From assembly GCA_035315185.1 (NCBI GenBank), contig DATFYE010000113.1, forward strand, positions 14,202 to 78,201: a stretch of 64,000 nt of DNA, written 5' to 3'. Positions 49,116-50,276 of this stretch are shown piece by piece; the stretch's first letter is position 1, and the number at the start of each line of letters is the position of its first letter. Both the position numbers and the translations under genes were made by a program. The stretch comes from Syntrophorhabdales bacterium. GTDB taxonomy: Bacteria; Desulfobacterota; Syntrophorhabdia; Syntrophorhabdales; WCHB1-27. Below the pieces are notes generated by a model. It did not search any database and had not been told where the DNA came from. It worked only from the letters and a program-made list of their open reading frames with translations.

Positions 49116-50276
49116 TCAATGCTCTGGCAGTCTTACCTTTCCCCAGAGAATACTGGTGATTTTCGAACGTGCATCTTTCACCGTTCTGTATTTAGCGGGA
49201 TACTCGGCACGGATCATTTTTGCGATTTCTCCCATTGTTCTTCTGCCGTTACAAAGACTAAAAACTCTGCAGTAAATCTCGGATTCCTGGGTGAGCGCGG
49301 GCTTAAAATCTTCGCGGCCAATTACTAATTCCTCCTTTGTTACATTAAGATTTGTTTGGTCAAAAGTCGCTACCTCAGTTCCGCCCCTTACTATTCTTAT
49401 CTGCCATTGCCAAAACAAATTATCCCTATATGGTATGACTTTTAAAATGTAATACACCACATCATCTTTCTTAAGGCCAATGCTCTCCTGCATCGGAAAA
49501 AAGGTTTGTTTCCAGTGAGTAATGGGTTCCCGGGGCGAGGTTGAAAGGATAACACTCTTAGATAAACCTGCCTTGAAATACCCAACTAATCCATGGAAAA
49601 CGCCTTTTCTGTTAATAATAAATTCTCCTTTAAGTATGGAAGGCGTCCTCTCGTCTTCATAAAAATTAACATGAGAGATTAAAAAAGGGTTGGCAAGAAA
49701 GCTGATTTTACCTGAACAATCTGCTATATATCGATTTGAAACGGCATACTGTTTTACGGATGAGAAATCAAGGCCATAGAGATCTTTATCCCAAATGCCT
49801 ATACGATCCCGCCATAGCGCCGACGATTCGACGGGCACTAAATACAGATCAAGCCAAGAAGGTATGAGCTTGCCTTTTGACGTTAAAAATCTTCTTCTTG
49901 CATCACTCTTAAATCTATATATATTCTCTTCCAGGCCAAAATGACCAAGTAATTCGGATATGATAACATCTACTTTTTCGGGCAATTCAACTTTGTCTGA
50001 TCTGTCGTTGATAAAAACAATCTTTTTTTTTAATCCATTTAACCGGGCAAGTTCTTTAGCTTCTTCTATAACGTAATCTTTTTCTATAGCGTAAACTTTC
50101 TTTGCCCCGGCCAGAACGGCAAAAAAAGCGAGAATCCCGCTTCCTGTGCCGATATCGCAAACAATGTCGCCCTTTTTAACCATCTCAAAGATGGCCCTTT
50201 TATAGGAGTTCATCCTTACTTTGTCTGCCAGCATTAATTGGTGGGAAAAAACACGATCAAACATGCCCAGCGCCAT
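49116..50276 (-). CDS. Protein arginine N-methyltransferase (PRMT)-like class I methyltransferase fused to a C-terminal PqqD/RRE-like domain
   Basis: HQLMLADKVRMNSYKRAI, motif I VCDIGTGSGILAFFAVLAGAKKVYAIE, double-E loop VIISELLGHFGLEEN, THW loop PITHWKQTFF. C-terminus: FSLCNGRRTMGEIAKMIRAEYP. Start reassigned to M30. Confidence 0.8.
   Translation of the reverse strand: MALGMFDRVFSHQLMLADKVRMNSYKRAIFEMVKKGDIVCDIGTGSGILAFFAVLAGAKKVYAIEKDYVIEEAKELARLNGLKKKIVFINDRSDKVELPEKVDVIISELLGHFGLEENIYRFKSDARRRFLTSKGKLIPSWLDLYLVPVESSALWRDRIGIWDKDLYGLDFSSVKQYAVSNRYIADCSGKISFLANPFLISHVNFYEDERTPSILKGEFIINRKGVFHGLVGYFKAGLSKSVILSTSPREPITHWKQTFFPMQESIGLKKDDVVYYILKVIPYRDNLFWQWQIRIVRGGTEVATFDQTNLNVTKEELVIGREDFKPALTQESEIYCRVFSLCNGRRTMGEIAKMIRAEYPAKYRTVKDARSKITSILWGKVRLPEH

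What the first reader, a model, noticed from the sequence alone, without database searches (positions are those of the whole stretch)
49116..50276. Eukaryote-type PRMT catalytic core fused to an RRE-like domain inside a RiPP operon
The protein carries the diagnostic PRMT elements: a motif I GxGxG, a double-E loop (SELLGHFGLEEN) and an exact THW loop (ITHWKQTF). It also has a beta-barrel-length middle segment and then a PqqD-like tail (LCNGRRTMGEIAKMIRAEY).

PRMT homologues are uncommon in bacteria. An RRE fusion implies leader-guided arginine methylation of a peptide, which to my knowledge is not an established RiPP tailoring reaction.
Basis: partly seen in the sequence, partly recalled or inferred. 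Interest (0 to 1): 0.75.

Follow-up and report, generated by a model that had tools for sequence, protein, structure and literature searches.

The report
Arginine methylase inside peptide-tailoring gene cluster
A bacterial gene annotated as a ribosomal-protein methylase is in fact a close structural relative of the eukaryotic protein arginine methyltransferases, fused to a small peptide-docking-type domain and sitting next to a short precursor peptide, so it probably methylates arginine in a ribosomally made natural product, a tailoring step nobody has yet demonstrated.

Summary
ORF 49116-50276 (-) encodes a 386-aa protein identical to NCBI HME44293.1, which is named "50S ribosomal protein L11 methyltransferase" (Syntrophorhabdales MAG). 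That name is wrong. It is a PRMT.

- **PRMT identity:** PRMT_C scores 72 bits (cut-off 27). A family profile hits PRMT8/3/1/6/CARM1 at about 1e-60. The AF2 model (pLDDT 93) superposes on PRMT1 (TM 0.86). Motif I, the double-E loop (E108/E117, PRMT1 spacing) and THW are conserved.
- **C-terminal domain:** the last ~77 residues are homologous to the three-helix half of PqqD (hhalign 92%). The beta-sheet wing that strictly defines an RRE is not predicted, and fold search is not significant.
- **Context:** the gene ends an operon of rSAM-HprK-like fusion, two rSAM/SPASM-like enzymes, PqqD and an 86-aa Cys-rich precursor. Most close relatives examined share this context.
- **Arginine as target:** this is inferred. 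The guanidinium-binding residues are intact, and every PRMT-linked cluster has an Arg-containing core (P≈0.007). An orthologous locus without the PRMT has lost both core arginines.
- **Divergent relatives:** lasso-cluster relatives have lost the double-E/THW residues.

No literature report of this reaction was found. Verdict: a new variant of a known kind, moderately high interest, biochemistry untested.

The parts
49116..50276 (-). PRMT-family methyltransferase with a C-terminal PqqD-like helical domain (386 aa plus stop). Identical to NCBI HME44293.1.
   Evidence: ORF. Pfam PRMT_C 72 bits, PRMT5_C and PRMT5 all above cut-off. PDB profile hits to PRMTs at about 1e-60. AF2 pLDDT 93 and Foldseek PRMT1 TM 0.86. 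Identity to HME44293.1.
49827..50276 (-). N-terminal helix plus the Rossmann SAM-binding domain (res 1-150). It contains motif I D41-G47 (nt 50136-50156), E65, and the double-E loop S107-N118 (nt 49923-49958).
   Evidence: Invariant or near-invariant columns. Alignment to PRMT8 places E108 and E117 on the two PRMT glutamates and M15 on PRMT1 M48. Coordinates.
49350..49826 (-). PRMT beta-barrel with the helical arm (helices 152-160 and 172-179) and the THW loop (T253-W255, nt 49512-49520).
   Evidence: PRMT_C and PRMT5_C Pfam matches. Secondary structure of the AF2 model. Foldseek alignment over about 315-330 columns to PRMT1/6/2.
49119..49349 (-). C-terminal domain (res 310-386): a short helix, an extended segment (FKPALTQ, nt 49287-49307), then three helices (330-341, 348-358, 366-377). 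Homologous to the helical half of PqqD/RRE. No beta wing is predicted.
   Evidence: hhalign 92.1%, E 6e-7 against 44 discrete PqqDs, and 64% against 4. PF05402 hits in 27 of 32 family members, own score 15.5 bits below cut-off. PDB PqqD 5sxy 0.021 and 3g2b 0.065. Helices only in AF2. Foldseek not significant.
50460..50720 (-). Precursor peptide gene (86 aa). The leader is MAHRKWEKPQLIVLVKGKPEESVLVNC. The Cys/Gly-rich core carries Arg49 (GNRAIF, nt 50565-50582) and Arg85 (LGRS, nt 50463-50474) and ends in Ser.
   Evidence: Strong Shine-Dalgarno AAGGGGGG 6 nt before the ATG. Leader conserved in precursors of related loci. Family of 342 proteins.
50772..51971 (-). Radical SAM enzyme with a SPASM-like C-terminal Cys cluster.
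   Evidence: Pfam Radical_SAM 3.5e-21. NCBIfam similarity to ScmF, PapB, StsB and other peptide maturases, all below their cut-offs. Orthologue 92% identical in L169.
51958..52266 (-). Discrete PqqD-family peptide chaperone (RRE).
   Evidence: Pfam PqqD 5e-13, 49.5 bits (cut-off 23.4).
52260..53450 (-). Second radical SAM / SPASM-like enzyme.
   Evidence: Pfam Radical_SAM 1.4e-18. NCBIfam. Paralogue of 50772-51971 (phmmer 1e-84).
53464..55428 (-). Radical SAM enzyme fused to an HprK-like P-loop (ScmC-type) domain. The ScmC-type domain is about nt 53464-54345.
   Evidence: Radical_SAM 1.4e-19. C-terminal part hits TIGR04249 ScmC 4.7e-8, HprK_rel_B 1.6e-6 and HPr(Ser) kinase 2e-4, all below cut-off. 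Homologues carry precomputed PF27840 ScmC.
55725..56297 (-). S24/S26-type (signal-peptidase-like) protein, a candidate leader peptidase. The true start is uncertain: the ORF runs to 56564, while the conserved part is about the last 136 aa.
   Evidence: Pfam Peptidase_S24 6.8e-6. TIGR02228 52.3 bits (cut-off 51.85). Recurs in related loci. 81% identical over 136 aa in L169.
46975..48945 (+). B12-binding radical SAM enzyme with a C-terminal TPR domain, convergent with the PRMT gene. Probably an accessory tailoring enzyme of the same cluster.
   Evidence: Pfam B12-binding, Radical_SAM and TPR. TIGR04190 223 bits, below cut-off. A B12-rSAM directly follows the PRMT gene in L003. Absent together with the PRMT from the orthologous L169.
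39416..46621 (.). Adjacent SynChlorMet-type genes: ScmF (39416-40621 -), ScmE (41114-42229 -), ABC exporter (42590-44461 +), HAF-repeat protein (44616-46058 -) and ScmD PqqD-type chaperone (46298-46621 -). They possibly act on the same precursor.
   Evidence: ScmE 612 bits, ScmF 610 bits and ScmD 118 bits, all above cut-off. No second precursor of this type was found between 36 and 57 kb.

Best explanation
The gene encodes a bacterial type-I-like protein arginine methyltransferase that has been recruited as a RiPP tailoring enzyme. It has three parts.

- **Rossmann domain:** binds SAM.
- **PRMT beta-barrel and arm:** form the usual (probably dimeric) active site. E108 and E117 (the double-E loop) and the THW loop hold a guanidinium group there.
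- **C-terminal PqqD-like three-helix domain:** tethers the enzyme to the conserved leader of the 86-aa precursor encoded directly upstream. The leader carries a W-x-x-P-x-L motif of the kind RREs recognise.

The enzyme would then N-methylate an arginine of the Cys-rich core (Arg49 and/or Arg85). The three radical SAM enzymes would cross-link the same peptide, and the HprK-like domain may modify its C-terminal Ser.

**Shown here:** the family, fold and active-site residues; the homology of the tail to PqqD helices; the operon and its synteny.

**Inferred:** leader binding by the tail, the peptide as substrate, arginine as acceptor, and the degree of methylation.
For: **PRMT identity.**
- Pfam PRMT_C, PRMT5_C and PRMT5 all score above cut-off.
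- The family profile hits solved PRMTs at 5e-62.
- The AF2 model has pLDDT 93 and pTM 0.83. Foldseek's top hits are PRMT1, PRMT6, PRMT2 and CARM1, with TM 0.86 to PRMT1.

**Active site.**
- E117 is invariant. E108, T253 and W255 are conserved in at least 90% of 39 homologues, with the E-to-E spacing of PRMT1.
- All 11 close-clade members fetched keep S-E...E and T-x-W.

**The tail.**
- hhalign to 44 PqqDs gives 92%, E 6e-7.
- 27 of 32 members hit PF05402.
- PDB PqqD, LynD and TruD are the top weak hits.
- Split versions exist, in which a PRMT without the tail is followed by a discrete PqqD gene: L071, L132, L139. L071 keeps a double-E (with S-S-W for THW); L132 and L139 carry the divergent active site.
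- In the top 150 of 999 representatives the domain is always at the C-terminal end of proteins of about 380 aa, or of their fragments.

**Context.**
- The precursor gene lies directly upstream here and in L003 and L166.
- The set rSAM-ScmC plus rSAM plus PqqD recurs in L001-L005, L167, L168 and L170.
- The leader W-x-x-P-x-L matches the W/Y/L-x-x-P recognition type (PMC12710340).

**Arginine.**
- Every one of 8 PRMT-linked clusters has at least one Arg-containing core. Only 48% of 112 background cores of the same precursor family do (P=0.0067). Arg frequency is 3.9% against 2.1%.
- L169 is the orthologous locus: its enzymes are 87-94% identical. It lacks the PRMT and B12-rSAM genes, and its 64%-identical precursor has lost both core arginines (R49->Y, R85->T).
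- Two other Arg-less precursors examined have no PRMT nearby.
- The divergent lasso-associated clade has lost E117 and THW, and about half of its precursor cores lack Arg.
Against: - No biochemical data exist.
- The tail lacks the predicted three-stranded sheet that forms half of the canonical RRE binding cleft. Foldseek gives no significant match, best E 1.2. This protein's own PF05402 score is below cut-off.
- The cluster already has a discrete PqqD (and ScmD), so a second leader-binding module is not obviously needed.
- The arginine statistic is weak. Fisher at peptide level gives p=0.053. The clusters are phylogenetically related. L168 and L170 each carry one Arg-less paralogue (VSLCM against VNRCM/VWRCM). 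Arg positions are not alignable across clusters.
- One canonical relative, P0083, sits in a non-RiPP neighbourhood. No precursor was found within 10 kb in L002.
- The N-terminal YFxxY helix of eukaryotic PRMTs is replaced by MFxxVF.
Confidence: 0.55

Rival explanations
1. It is a PRMT-fold peptide methyltransferase of this RiPP pathway, but the acceptor is not arginine. Candidates are the near-invariant Lys that follows the leader Cys (…C-K…), the new N-terminus after leader removal, or a radical-SAM-generated group.
For: - The PRMT fold has been re-tooled in relatives. The lasso-associated PRMT plus PqqD-like clade has E117->G/A/S/Q and THW->T-I-Y or P-x-R, and about half of its precursor cores have no Arg.
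- Lys follows the leader Cys in 118 of 120 precursors.
- Arg positions are not conserved between clusters, and some paralogous precursors lack Arg.
Against: - The window protein and its whole close clade retain both glutamates at PRMT1 spacing, and THW. In PRMTs these bind the guanidinium.
- The Lys is equally invariant in precursor loci without a PRMT (L169, L171, L172), so it does not track the enzyme.
- The orthologue pair shows Arg loss together with PRMT absence.
Confidence: 0.17
2. It is an arginine methyltransferase acting on the peptide, but the C-terminal helical domain is not a leader-binding RRE. On this reading it is a structural, dimerisation or partner-docking domain, as in other methyltransferases with C-terminal winged-helix-like domains. 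Substrate delivery would depend on the discrete PqqD or on direct core recognition.
For: - No beta-sheet is predicted.
- Foldseek's best, non-significant hit is the methyltransferase Rv2067c (8hkr), ahead of PqqD.
- 8 of 32 members weakly hit PF21782, the 'PKMT C-terminal winged helix'.
- A discrete PqqD and ScmD are already present.
Against: - The profile-profile match to PqqD helices is strong: 92%, E 6e-7.
- The segment FKPAL aligns to PqqD beta3 in the smaller comparison.
- PF21782 also hits the bona fide ScmD, so the two families overlap in sequence space.
- Split PRMT plus PqqD gene pairs exist.
Confidence: 0.15
3. It is a housekeeping protein methyltransferase, unrelated to the peptide. 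One version is the ribosomal protein L11 methyltransferase PrmA, as NCBI names it. Another is a PRMT acting on a cellular protein or on one of the maturases.
For: - NCBI calls it 50S ribosomal protein L11 methyltransferase.
- Pfam PrmA matches residues 60-141 of the ORF.
- One relative, P0083, lies outside any RiPP context.
- Many stand-alone bacterial PRMTs have diverse neighbourhoods.
Against: - TIGR00406 prmA scores 48 bits against a cut-off of 183, and only the Rossmann part matches.
- The beta-barrel, double-E loop and THW loop are PRMT-specific.
- Synteny with rSAM-ScmC, PqqD and the precursor is conserved across phyla.
- The gene is missing from the otherwise orthologous L169, so it is accessory rather than housekeeping.
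Confidence: 0.06

Closest known systems
Eukaryotic type I PRMTs (PRMT1, PRMT3, PRMT6, PRMT8, CARM1)
   Same: - Same two-domain catalytic module: Rossmann SAM-binding domain plus beta-barrel with a helical arm.
- Motif I, the post-I acidic residue, the double-E loop at identical spacing, and THWKQT almost letter for letter.
- Met15 aligns with PRMT1 Met48.
- 28-30% identity, profile E about 1e-60, TM 0.86.
   Different: - It is bacterial.
- The N-terminal YFxxY helix is replaced by MFxxVF.
- It carries a C-terminal PqqD-like domain not known in eukaryotic PRMTs.
- It is encoded in a peptide-maturation operon.
- The presumed substrate is one dedicated peptide rather than many RG-rich proteins.
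Stand-alone bacterial PRMT homologues, the 'bacterial peptide methylases' of Aravind et al. (PMC3417536)
   Same: - Closest sequence relatives, up to 46% identity over the core.
- Most keep the double-E and W of THW.
- Some lie beside Scm-type rSAM cassettes (L023, L085).
- They were already proposed in silico to act in peptide secondary metabolism.
   Different: - They are about 300-335 aa and lack the C-terminal domain (121 of 168 fetched).
- The contexts described in the literature were NRPS, dioxygenase and amine-oxidase operons, not rSAM/PqqD RiPP clusters.
- As far as I found, none has been characterised biochemically.
PqqD / RiPP recognition elements (PF05402; e.g. PqqD 3G2B and 5SXY, lasso B1 6JX3)
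   Same: - The L-x-L-C-D/N-G-x-R-T-x-x-E-I-A…E-Y-P helices align to PqqD alpha1-alpha3.
- The partner leader carries a W-x-x-P-x-L motif like lasso, PQQ and sactipeptide leaders.
   Different: - The beta1-beta3 sheet is not predicted.
- The score is below the Pfam cut-off for this protein, and there is no significant structural match.
[quoted passage not shown]
Known RiPP methyltransferases (my knowledge: plantazolicin BamL and cypemycin CypM N-terminal dimethylases, borosin alpha-N-MTs, PoyE. From PMC9266682: lasso C-terminal O-MT StspM and PIMT-type O-MTs)
   Same: They are SAM-dependent tailoring enzymes acting on a ribosomal precursor, some in a leader-dependent manner.
   Different: - They belong to other methyltransferase families and use other acceptor atoms (alpha-amine, amide N, carboxylate, Asp).
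- None is a PRMT-fold enzyme, and none methylates the guanidino group.
- The lasso PTM review lists no arginine methylation.
Paeninodin/pseudomycoidin-type lasso clusters with a tailoring kinase and a nucleotidyltransferase-like protein
   Same: - The same accessory set occurs with PRMT plus PqqD-like enzymes: an HprK-like P-loop protein or domain, and NTP_transf_5.
- The precursors here end in Ser/Thr in 120 of 120 cases. PadeK/PsmK substrates likewise end in Ser (PMC9266682).
   Different: - Here the kinase-like domain is fused to a radical SAM enzyme.
- The peptide is a Cys-rich rSAM substrate, not a lasso peptide.
- Phosphorylation is only inferred.
PrmA (ribosomal protein L11 methyltransferase), the current database name
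   Same: Class I Rossmann methyltransferase region (Pfam PF06325 matches about 80 residues).
   Different: It scores 48 bits against the 183-bit cut-off of TIGR00406. It has no PrmA N-terminal domain, and it has a PRMT beta-barrel instead.

Membership tests
PRMT (protein arginine N-methyltransferase) family | Class I SAM-binding fold with motif I (VxDxGxGxG) and the post-I acidic residue | tested here: met
   D41-I-G-T-G-S-G47 and E65 are invariant in 39 homologues. They align to the PRMT8 motifs.
PRMT (protein arginine N-methyltransferase) family | Double-E loop: two glutamates that bind the substrate guanidinium | tested here: met
   S-E108-LLGHFGLE-E117. E117 is invariant and E108 is at least 90% conserved (Asp otherwise). 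The spacing equals PRMT1 E144/E153. Retained in all close-clade members.
PRMT (protein arginine N-methyltransferase) family | THW loop | tested here: met
   T253-H254-W255 (THWKQTFF), aligned to THWKQTVF of PRMT8. T and W are at least 90% conserved.
PRMT (protein arginine N-methyltransferase) family | PRMT-specific beta-barrel domain | tested here: met
   PF22528 PRMT_C 72 bits (cut-off 27) and PF17286 41.9 bits (cut-off 30.3). Foldseek TM 0.86 to PRMT1 over about 315 columns.
PRMT (protein arginine N-methyltransferase) family | Dimerisation arm and an obligate dimer | tested here: inconclusive
   Two helices (152-160, 172-179) are predicted where the arm lies in PRMT1. Oligomeric state was not modelled.
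PRMT (protein arginine N-methyltransferase) family | N-terminal YFxxY helix that closes over SAM | tested here: not met
   The sequence is M-F-D-R-V-F with a roughly 3-residue shorter segment. The following H-x-x-M-L-x-D-x-x-R is conserved.
PRMT (protein arginine N-methyltransferase) family | Catalyses N-methylation of peptidyl arginine | not testable with these tools
   Only indirect evidence exists: active-site conservation, and the association between Arg in the core and PRMT presence.
RRE / PqqD (PF05402) domain | Sequence membership (Pfam gathering score) | tested here: not met
   The C-terminal 91 aa score 15.5 bits, E 0.022, against a cut-off of 23.4. There was no hit with the whole protein at E<=0.01.
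RRE / PqqD (PF05402) domain | Detectable homology at profile level | tested here: met
   hhalign of the family's tail against 44 discrete PqqDs gives 92.1% probability, E 6.2e-7, over 44 columns covering the three helices. 27 of 32 members hit PF05402 at E<=1, best 3.8e-5.
RRE / PqqD (PF05402) domain | [quoted passage not shown] | tested here: not met
   AF2 predicts only helices after residue 310, in both the full-length model and the isolated domain (pLDDT 92). Foldseek against PDB has no hit with E<=0.001. PqqD 3g2b is rank 10 (TM 0.44) and lasso B1 6jx3 is rank 33.
RRE / PqqD (PF05402) domain | Binds the leader of the precursor peptide | not testable with these tools
   The leader has a W-x-x-P-x-L motif of a known recognition type. 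No complex prediction or binding assay was possible.
RiPP biosynthetic gene cluster (radical SAM/SPASM, SynChlorMet-like) | Short precursor gene with a conserved leader and a hypervariable core next to the maturases | tested here: met
   An 86-aa gene with a strong SD. The leader is conserved across 342 family members, the cores are variable and Cys-rich. rSAM, PqqD and peptidase genes are adjacent.
RiPP biosynthetic gene cluster (radical SAM/SPASM, SynChlorMet-like) | Membership of the canonical SynChlorMet cassette (ScmC/D/E/F equivalogs) | tested here: inconclusive
   The neighbouring genes 39416-46621 pass the ScmD/E/F cut-offs. The operon containing the PRMT gene only resembles them: ScmC domain 32.7 bits against 125, rSAMs 72-99 bits against 400.
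PrmA (L11 methyltransferase; current annotation) | Equivalog score of TIGR00406 or the NF0017xx models | tested here: not met
   48.4 bits against a cut-off of 183.15. The match is limited to the Rossmann region.

The most novel reading that the evidence does not exclude
PRMT plus minimal-RRE fusions may form a large, unrecognised family of leader-guided peptide arginine methyltransferases (about 1000 representative clusters carry the fused domain). On this reading the canonical-site clade, to which this gene belongs, installs mono- or dimethylarginine in radical-SAM-cross-linked RiPPs. That would be the first guanidino N-methylation in RiPP biosynthesis. A sister clade in lasso clusters would have re-tooled the same scaffold for a different acceptor. 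The finding would also give experimental footing to the idea that eukaryotic PRMTs descend from bacterial peptide-tailoring enzymes.
Probability: 0.5. Interest if true: 0.78.

Novelty: new variant of a known kind. Interest (0 to 1): 0.68.

Why it matters
- **New RiPP chemistry.** If confirmed, arginine N-methylation would join the list of RiPP tailoring reactions. It would come with a compact enzyme that appears to carry its own leader-docking domain, which makes it attractive for peptide engineering (methyl-Arg changes charge distribution, protease resistance and binding).
- **A tractable bacterial PRMT.** It would provide a bacterial PRMT with a single defined peptide substrate for mechanistic work.
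- **PRMT origins.** It bears on the origin of eukaryotic PRMTs from bacterial peptide-modifying systems, proposed only in silico so far.
- **A misannotation to correct.** The whole family is currently mislabelled in databases as ribosomal protein L11 methyltransferase, UbiE, precorrin methylase and so on.
- **An unstudied RiPP family.** The finding exposes a large, unannotated precursor family (342+ members with an invariant leader and a C-terminal Ser/Thr) processed by rSAM-HprK-like fusions.

Tried and rejected
1. **PrmA, the database name.** Rejected: 48 bits against a 183-bit cut-off, and PRMT-specific domains are present.
2. **Fold-level proof of an RRE.** The isolated tail folds confidently as helices only, and Foldseek against PDB gives nothing significant. 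I therefore relied on profile-profile comparison.
3. **'Arg is present in the cores' as evidence.** On its own this is not discriminating, because 48% of background cores of this family contain Arg. I replaced it with a cluster-level test and an orthologue comparison.
4. **Treating all PRMT plus tail proteins as one functional class.** Rejected: the lasso-associated clade has lost E117 and THW, and about half of its cores lack Arg.
5. **Single-sequence metagenome scan.** It found nothing.
6. **Promoter/terminator consensus scan of 46.5-56.8 kb.** Uninformative: counts were at shuffle level.
7. **Hairpins in the precursor-to-PRMT spacer.** Only marginal, z = -1.9.
8. **Literature.** Ten searches found no report of a PRMT-type enzyme or arginine N-methylation in RiPPs, and nothing on 'SynChlorMet'. 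RRE-Finder papers do not mention such a fusion.
9. **Precursor in L002.** I looked within 10 kb and found none.
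Full report
**1. The observation**

The finding's coordinates delimit a real, intact gene. ORF 49116-50276 on the minus strand encodes 386 aa from the ATG at 50276. The translation is 100% identical to NCBI HME44293.1, a protein of a Syntrophorhabdales (Thermodesulfobacteriota) MAG that NCBI names "50S ribosomal protein L11 methyltransferase".

- DIGTGSG at residues 41-47
- SELLGHFGLEEN at residues 107-118
- ITHWKQTF, with THW at residues 253-255
- LCNGRRTMGEIAKMIRAEY at residues 341-359

**2. The catalytic part is a PRMT**

- Pfam places the middle of the protein in PRMT_C (PF22528, E 7e-20, 72 bits against a cut-off of 27). 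It also hits PRMT5_C (41.9 against 30.3) and PRMT5 (24.4 against 22.9). The PrmA model matches only about 80 residues of the Rossmann fold. The NCBIfam prmA equivalog scores 48 bits against a cut-off of 183, so the database name is wrong.
- A profile of 39 homologues finds solved PRMT8, PRMT3, PRMT1, PRMT6 and CARM1 at 5e-62 to 1e-56. The printed alignment puts E108 and E117 on the two glutamates of the double-E loop (same spacing as PRMT1 E144/E153), THWKQTFF on THWKQTVF, and Met15 on PRMT1 Met48.
- In the family alignment D41, G43, G45, G47, E65 and E117 are invariant. E108, T253 and W255 are conserved in at least 90% of sequences.
- An AlphaFold2 model built on that alignment is confident (pLDDT 93, pTM 0.83). 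It has the expected Rossmann domain, a two-helix arm (152-160, 172-179) and a beta-barrel. Foldseek against the PDB returns only PRMTs at the top, with PRMT1 1ORI at E 3e-30, TM 0.86 and rmsd 2.6 Å.
- The one PRMT feature not met is the N-terminal YFxxY helix, which here reads MFDRVF and is shorter.

**3. The C-terminal ~77 residues**

Both AF2 models predict a short helix, an extended stretch (…DFKPALTQ…) and three helices (330-341, 348-358, 366-377). One model is the full-length protein; the other is residues 296-386 alone (pLDDT 92). Neither predicts a beta-sheet. The sequence and fold evidence point in different directions.

*By sequence, the tail is PqqD-related.*

- The window's tail scores E 0.022 (15.5 bits, below the 23.4 cut-off) on PF05402. 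However, 27 of 32 family members hit PF05402 at E<=1, the best at 3.8e-5. Eight also hit PF21782, another winged-helix model.
- The family profile's best PDB sequence hits are PqqD (5SXY 0.021, 3G2B 0.065), with the RRE-containing LynD and TruD further down.
- hhalign against four local PqqDs gives 64%. Against 44 discrete PqqDs collected from the fetched loci it gives 92.1%, E 6e-7. That alignment places residues 333-379 on PqqD columns 43-86 of 100, which are the three helices.

*By fold search, nothing is significant.* The best hit is E 1.2, to the methyltransferase Rv2067c. PqqD 3G2B is rank 10. Lasso B1 with bound leader, 6JX3, is rank 33 at rmsd 1.5 Å over 46 residues.

The tail is therefore homologous to the helical half of an RRE. 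[quoted passage not shown]

Two further observations favour a PqqD-type role:

- Split arrangements exist, in which a tail-less PRMT gene is followed immediately by a discrete PqqD gene: L071, L132, L139. L071 keeps a double-E (with S-S-W in place of THW); L132 and L139 carry the divergent active site.
- A scan of 1.84 billion representatives with the tail profile finds 999 proteins at E<=1e-3. In the top 150 the domain is always at the C-terminal end of proteins of about 375-395 aa, or of their fragments.

**4. Context**

The gene is the last of a minus-strand operon, listed here in transcription order:

| Coordinates | Product |
|---|---|
| 55725-~56297 | S24/S26-type peptidase-like protein |
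| 53464-55428 | radical SAM enzyme fused to an HprK-like (ScmC-type) P-loop domain |
| 52260-53450 | radical SAM/SPASM-like enzyme |
| 51958-52266 | PqqD |
| 50772-51971 | second radical SAM/SPASM-like enzyme |
| 50460-50720 | 86-aa precursor |
| 49116-50276 | the PRMT |

 The precursor gene has a strong Shine-Dalgarno sequence, AAGGGGGG, 6 nt before its ATG. A B12-binding radical SAM-TPR gene (46975-48945) is convergent with the PRMT gene. Beyond it lie true ScmD, ScmE and ScmF genes and an ABC exporter. The whole set is embedded in nucleotide-sugar and envelope-glycan genes.

Close homologues (37-67% identity, almost all 370-395 aa, 94-98% coverage) show the same neighbourhood wherever enough DNA was available. 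The set rSAM-ScmC fusion, rSAM(s) and usually PqqD recurs in L001-L005, L167, L168 and L170, which come from Deltaproteobacteria-type, KSB1 and other MAGs. NTP_transf_5, an ABC exporter, a B12-rSAM or a carbamoyltransferase-TPR are often present too. One relative, P0083, is an exception with no RiPP genes nearby.

**5. The precursor family**

Eight distinct precursors from PRMT-containing loci share the leader W-x-x-P-x-L-x-V-L-x-R/K-x-x-x-E-E-x-V-L-x-x-C-K, followed by variable Cys-rich cores. A profile search finds 342 family members, all unannotated. Of the 120 listed, all end in Ser (105) or Thr (15). In 118 of them Lys follows the leader Cys. The aromatic-x-x-P-x-L element is of the W/Y/L-x-x-P type recognised by the lasso, PQQ and sactipeptide RREs.

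**6. Is arginine the acceptor?**

This cannot be shown computationally. Three lines of evidence converge.

- *Active site.* The guanidinium-binding residues are intact in the window protein and in all 11 fetched members of its close clade.
- *Arg in the cores.* Within the precursor family only 54 of 112 background cores (48%) contain Arg, at a frequency of 2.1%. Every one of the 8 PRMT-containing clusters has at least one Arg-containing precursor (8 of 10 peptides, frequency 3.9%). This gives P=0.0067 at cluster level, but only p=0.053 by Fisher at peptide level, and the clusters are not phylogenetically independent.
- *A natural experiment.* L169 is the orthologous locus. The identities to the window proteins are 88.7% (rSAM-ScmC), 87% and 92.5% (the two rSAMs), 94% and 93% (UDP-glucose dehydrogenase and UDP-xylose synthase), 81% (ScmD) and 78.5% (ABC exporter). 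L169 lacks exactly the PRMT and B12-rSAM genes; a glycosyltransferase gene lies in their place. Its precursor has the same length and is 64% identical, and it has lost both core arginines (GNRAIF->GDYNVS, LGRS->LGTS).

Two further Arg-less precursors on long contigs (L171, L172) have no PRMT within reach.

There are counter-points. L168 and L170 each carry one Arg-less paralogue (…VSLCM…) beside an Arg-containing one (…VNRCM… / …VWRCM…). Arg positions cannot be aligned between clusters.

**7. A wider picture emerged**

- Of 168 PRMT-like ORFs in the fetched loci, 47 carry the tail and 121 do not (median 334 aa).
- The tail-bearing proteins at about 30% identity, mainly from Acidobacteriota and Actinomycetota, lie in lasso-peptide clusters. 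These contain PqqD B1, transglutaminase-like B2 and Asn-synthase-like cyclase (Pfam-confirmed), together with an HprK-related protein of about 330 aa and NTP_transf_5.
- In that clade the first glutamate is Asp, the second is replaced by G/A/S/Q, and THW becomes T-I-Y or P-x-R. Only about half of the candidate lasso cores contain Arg. The scaffold has evidently been re-tooled there. This makes retention of the canonical site in the window's clade more meaningful, and it warns against assuming a single function for all fusions.
- Stand-alone canonical PRMTs also occur next to Scm cassettes. In L023 the PRMT gene is convergent with two ScmA-like, Arg-containing, CPGG-repeat precursors.

**8. Known or new?**

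[quoted passage not shown] Those operons were of the NRPS, dioxygenase and amine-oxidase type.
- I found no paper describing a PRMT-type enzyme in a RiPP cluster, a PRMT-RRE fusion, or guanidino N-methylation as a RiPP modification. The library lacks most subscription-journal papers, so absence is not proof.
- I therefore class this as a new variant of a known kind: a known enzyme family, a known docking-domain family and a known cluster logic, in a combination and a predicted reaction that are not established.

**9. Mechanism proposed (confidence about 0.55)**

1. The enzyme, probably a dimer, binds SAM.
2. The PqqD-like tail engages the leader. Alone or together with the discrete PqqD, it may bind one of the leader's two conserved blocks, W-x-K-P-E-L or P-E-E-x-V-L.
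3. A core arginine enters the E108/E117/THW pocket and is mono- or dimethylated. A type-I-like outcome is suggested only by the conserved Met15.
4. The rSAM enzymes make cross-links from the core cysteines.
5. The HprK-like domain may phosphorylate the C-terminal Ser. This is by analogy with PadeK/PsmK, which phosphorylate the conserved C-terminal Ser of lasso precursors (PMC9266682).
6. The S24-like protein and the ABC exporter would process and export the product.

The main rivals are a non-arginine acceptor (0.17), a non-RRE role for the tail (0.15) and a housekeeping protein substrate (0.06). MS/MS of the co-expressed precursor with R-to-K controls, together with a leader-binding assay of residues 310-386, would settle the question.

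Noticed in passing
window 50460-50720 (-), and P0121-P0240: The precursor belongs to a large, wholly unannotated peptide family: 342 hits at E<=0.01. The leader is nearly invariant (W-x-K-P-E-L-[IV]-V-L-V-R-[SG]-x-P-E-E-x-V-L-x-x-C-K) and the cores are hypervariable with 2-6 Cys. All 120 listed members end in Ser or Thr.
   Followed up: partly
window 53464-55428 (-): A radical SAM enzyme is fused to an HprK-like P-loop (ScmC-type) domain. Given the universal C-terminal Ser/Thr of the precursors, and the NTP_transf_5 genes in related loci, this recalls C-terminal Ser phosphorylation and glycosylation of lasso precursors by PadeK/PsmK and PsmN. Phosphorylation here is only inferred.
   Followed up: partly
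L098 1912-8221; also L092, L116, L121, L123, L034 and others: A distant clade (~30% identity) of PRMT-fold plus PqqD-like proteins sits in lasso-peptide clusters (B1, B2, Asn-synthase-like cyclase, HprK-related protein, NTP_transf_5). It has lost the second double-E glutamate and the THW motif. Its methyl acceptor is unknown, and several candidate lasso cores have no Arg.
   Followed up: partly
window 46001-50000, compared with L169 10261-12117: GC drops to 0.40-0.45 over the B12-rSAM and PRMT genes, against 0.54-0.56 in the flanks. The orthologous locus L169 lacks exactly these two genes and has a glycosyltransferase gene in their place. This suggests gain or loss of an accessory tailoring module.
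   Followed up: partly
window 39416-46621: Bona fide SynChlorMet genes (ScmF 39416-40621, ScmE 41114-42229, ScmD 46298-46621) lie with an ABC exporter. There is no ScmC gene and no second precursor of the W/Y-x-x-P-x-L Cys-rich type within 36-57 kb. They may share the single precursor with the PRMT operon. A four-helix-bundle protein (TIGR02436) lies between ScmF and ScmE at 40618-41055.
   Followed up: partly
window 33787-36210 and 56681-60156; L001, L002, L167, L168, L169, L170: The RiPP-type genes are embedded in nucleotide-sugar, polysaccharide-export and envelope-glycan genes (UDP-glucose dehydrogenase, UDP-xylose synthase-like, WecA-like, Wzz/GNVR, Poly_export, glycosyltransferases). This holds in several phyla. 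The reason for the association is unexplained.
   Followed up: no
window 44616-46058 (-): A HAF-repeat protein (TIGR02913, DUF3466-like) has about eight near-identical internal repeats (…GFIYxxGxYTELLPxGWTSAxAxxINDSGVVVGGGSDGSGTQK…). It lies between the ABC exporter and ScmD. A shorter homologue is present in L169.
   Followed up: no
window 50277-50459 (-): The 183-nt spacer between the precursor stop codon and the PRMT start contains three GC-rich hairpins, for example CCUGCCGUCACCGGCAGG and GGCAAAGUUUACGAACUUUGCC, none followed by a U-tract. The fold z-score is only -1.9. They could act as an attenuator or processing site setting the peptide-to-enzyme ratio.
   Followed up: partly
L023 9983-11497: A stand-alone canonical PRMT (319 aa, no tail, double-E and THW intact) is convergent with two ScmA-like precursors. 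These have the leader K-x-Y-x-P-P-x-I-K-E-I-G-G-V-F-E-Q-A-M-G and CPGG repeats with several Arg next to Cys. They sit beside a complete ScmC/D/E/F plus B12-rSAM cassette.
   Followed up: partly
window 49116-50276 (-); P0003-P0120 source names: Database names for this family are inconsistent and mostly wrong: '50S ribosomal protein L11 methyltransferase', 'precorrin-6B methylase 2', 'UbiE', 'predicted RNA methylase'. Only some JGI entries say 'protein arginine N-methyltransferase 1'.
   Followed up: yes
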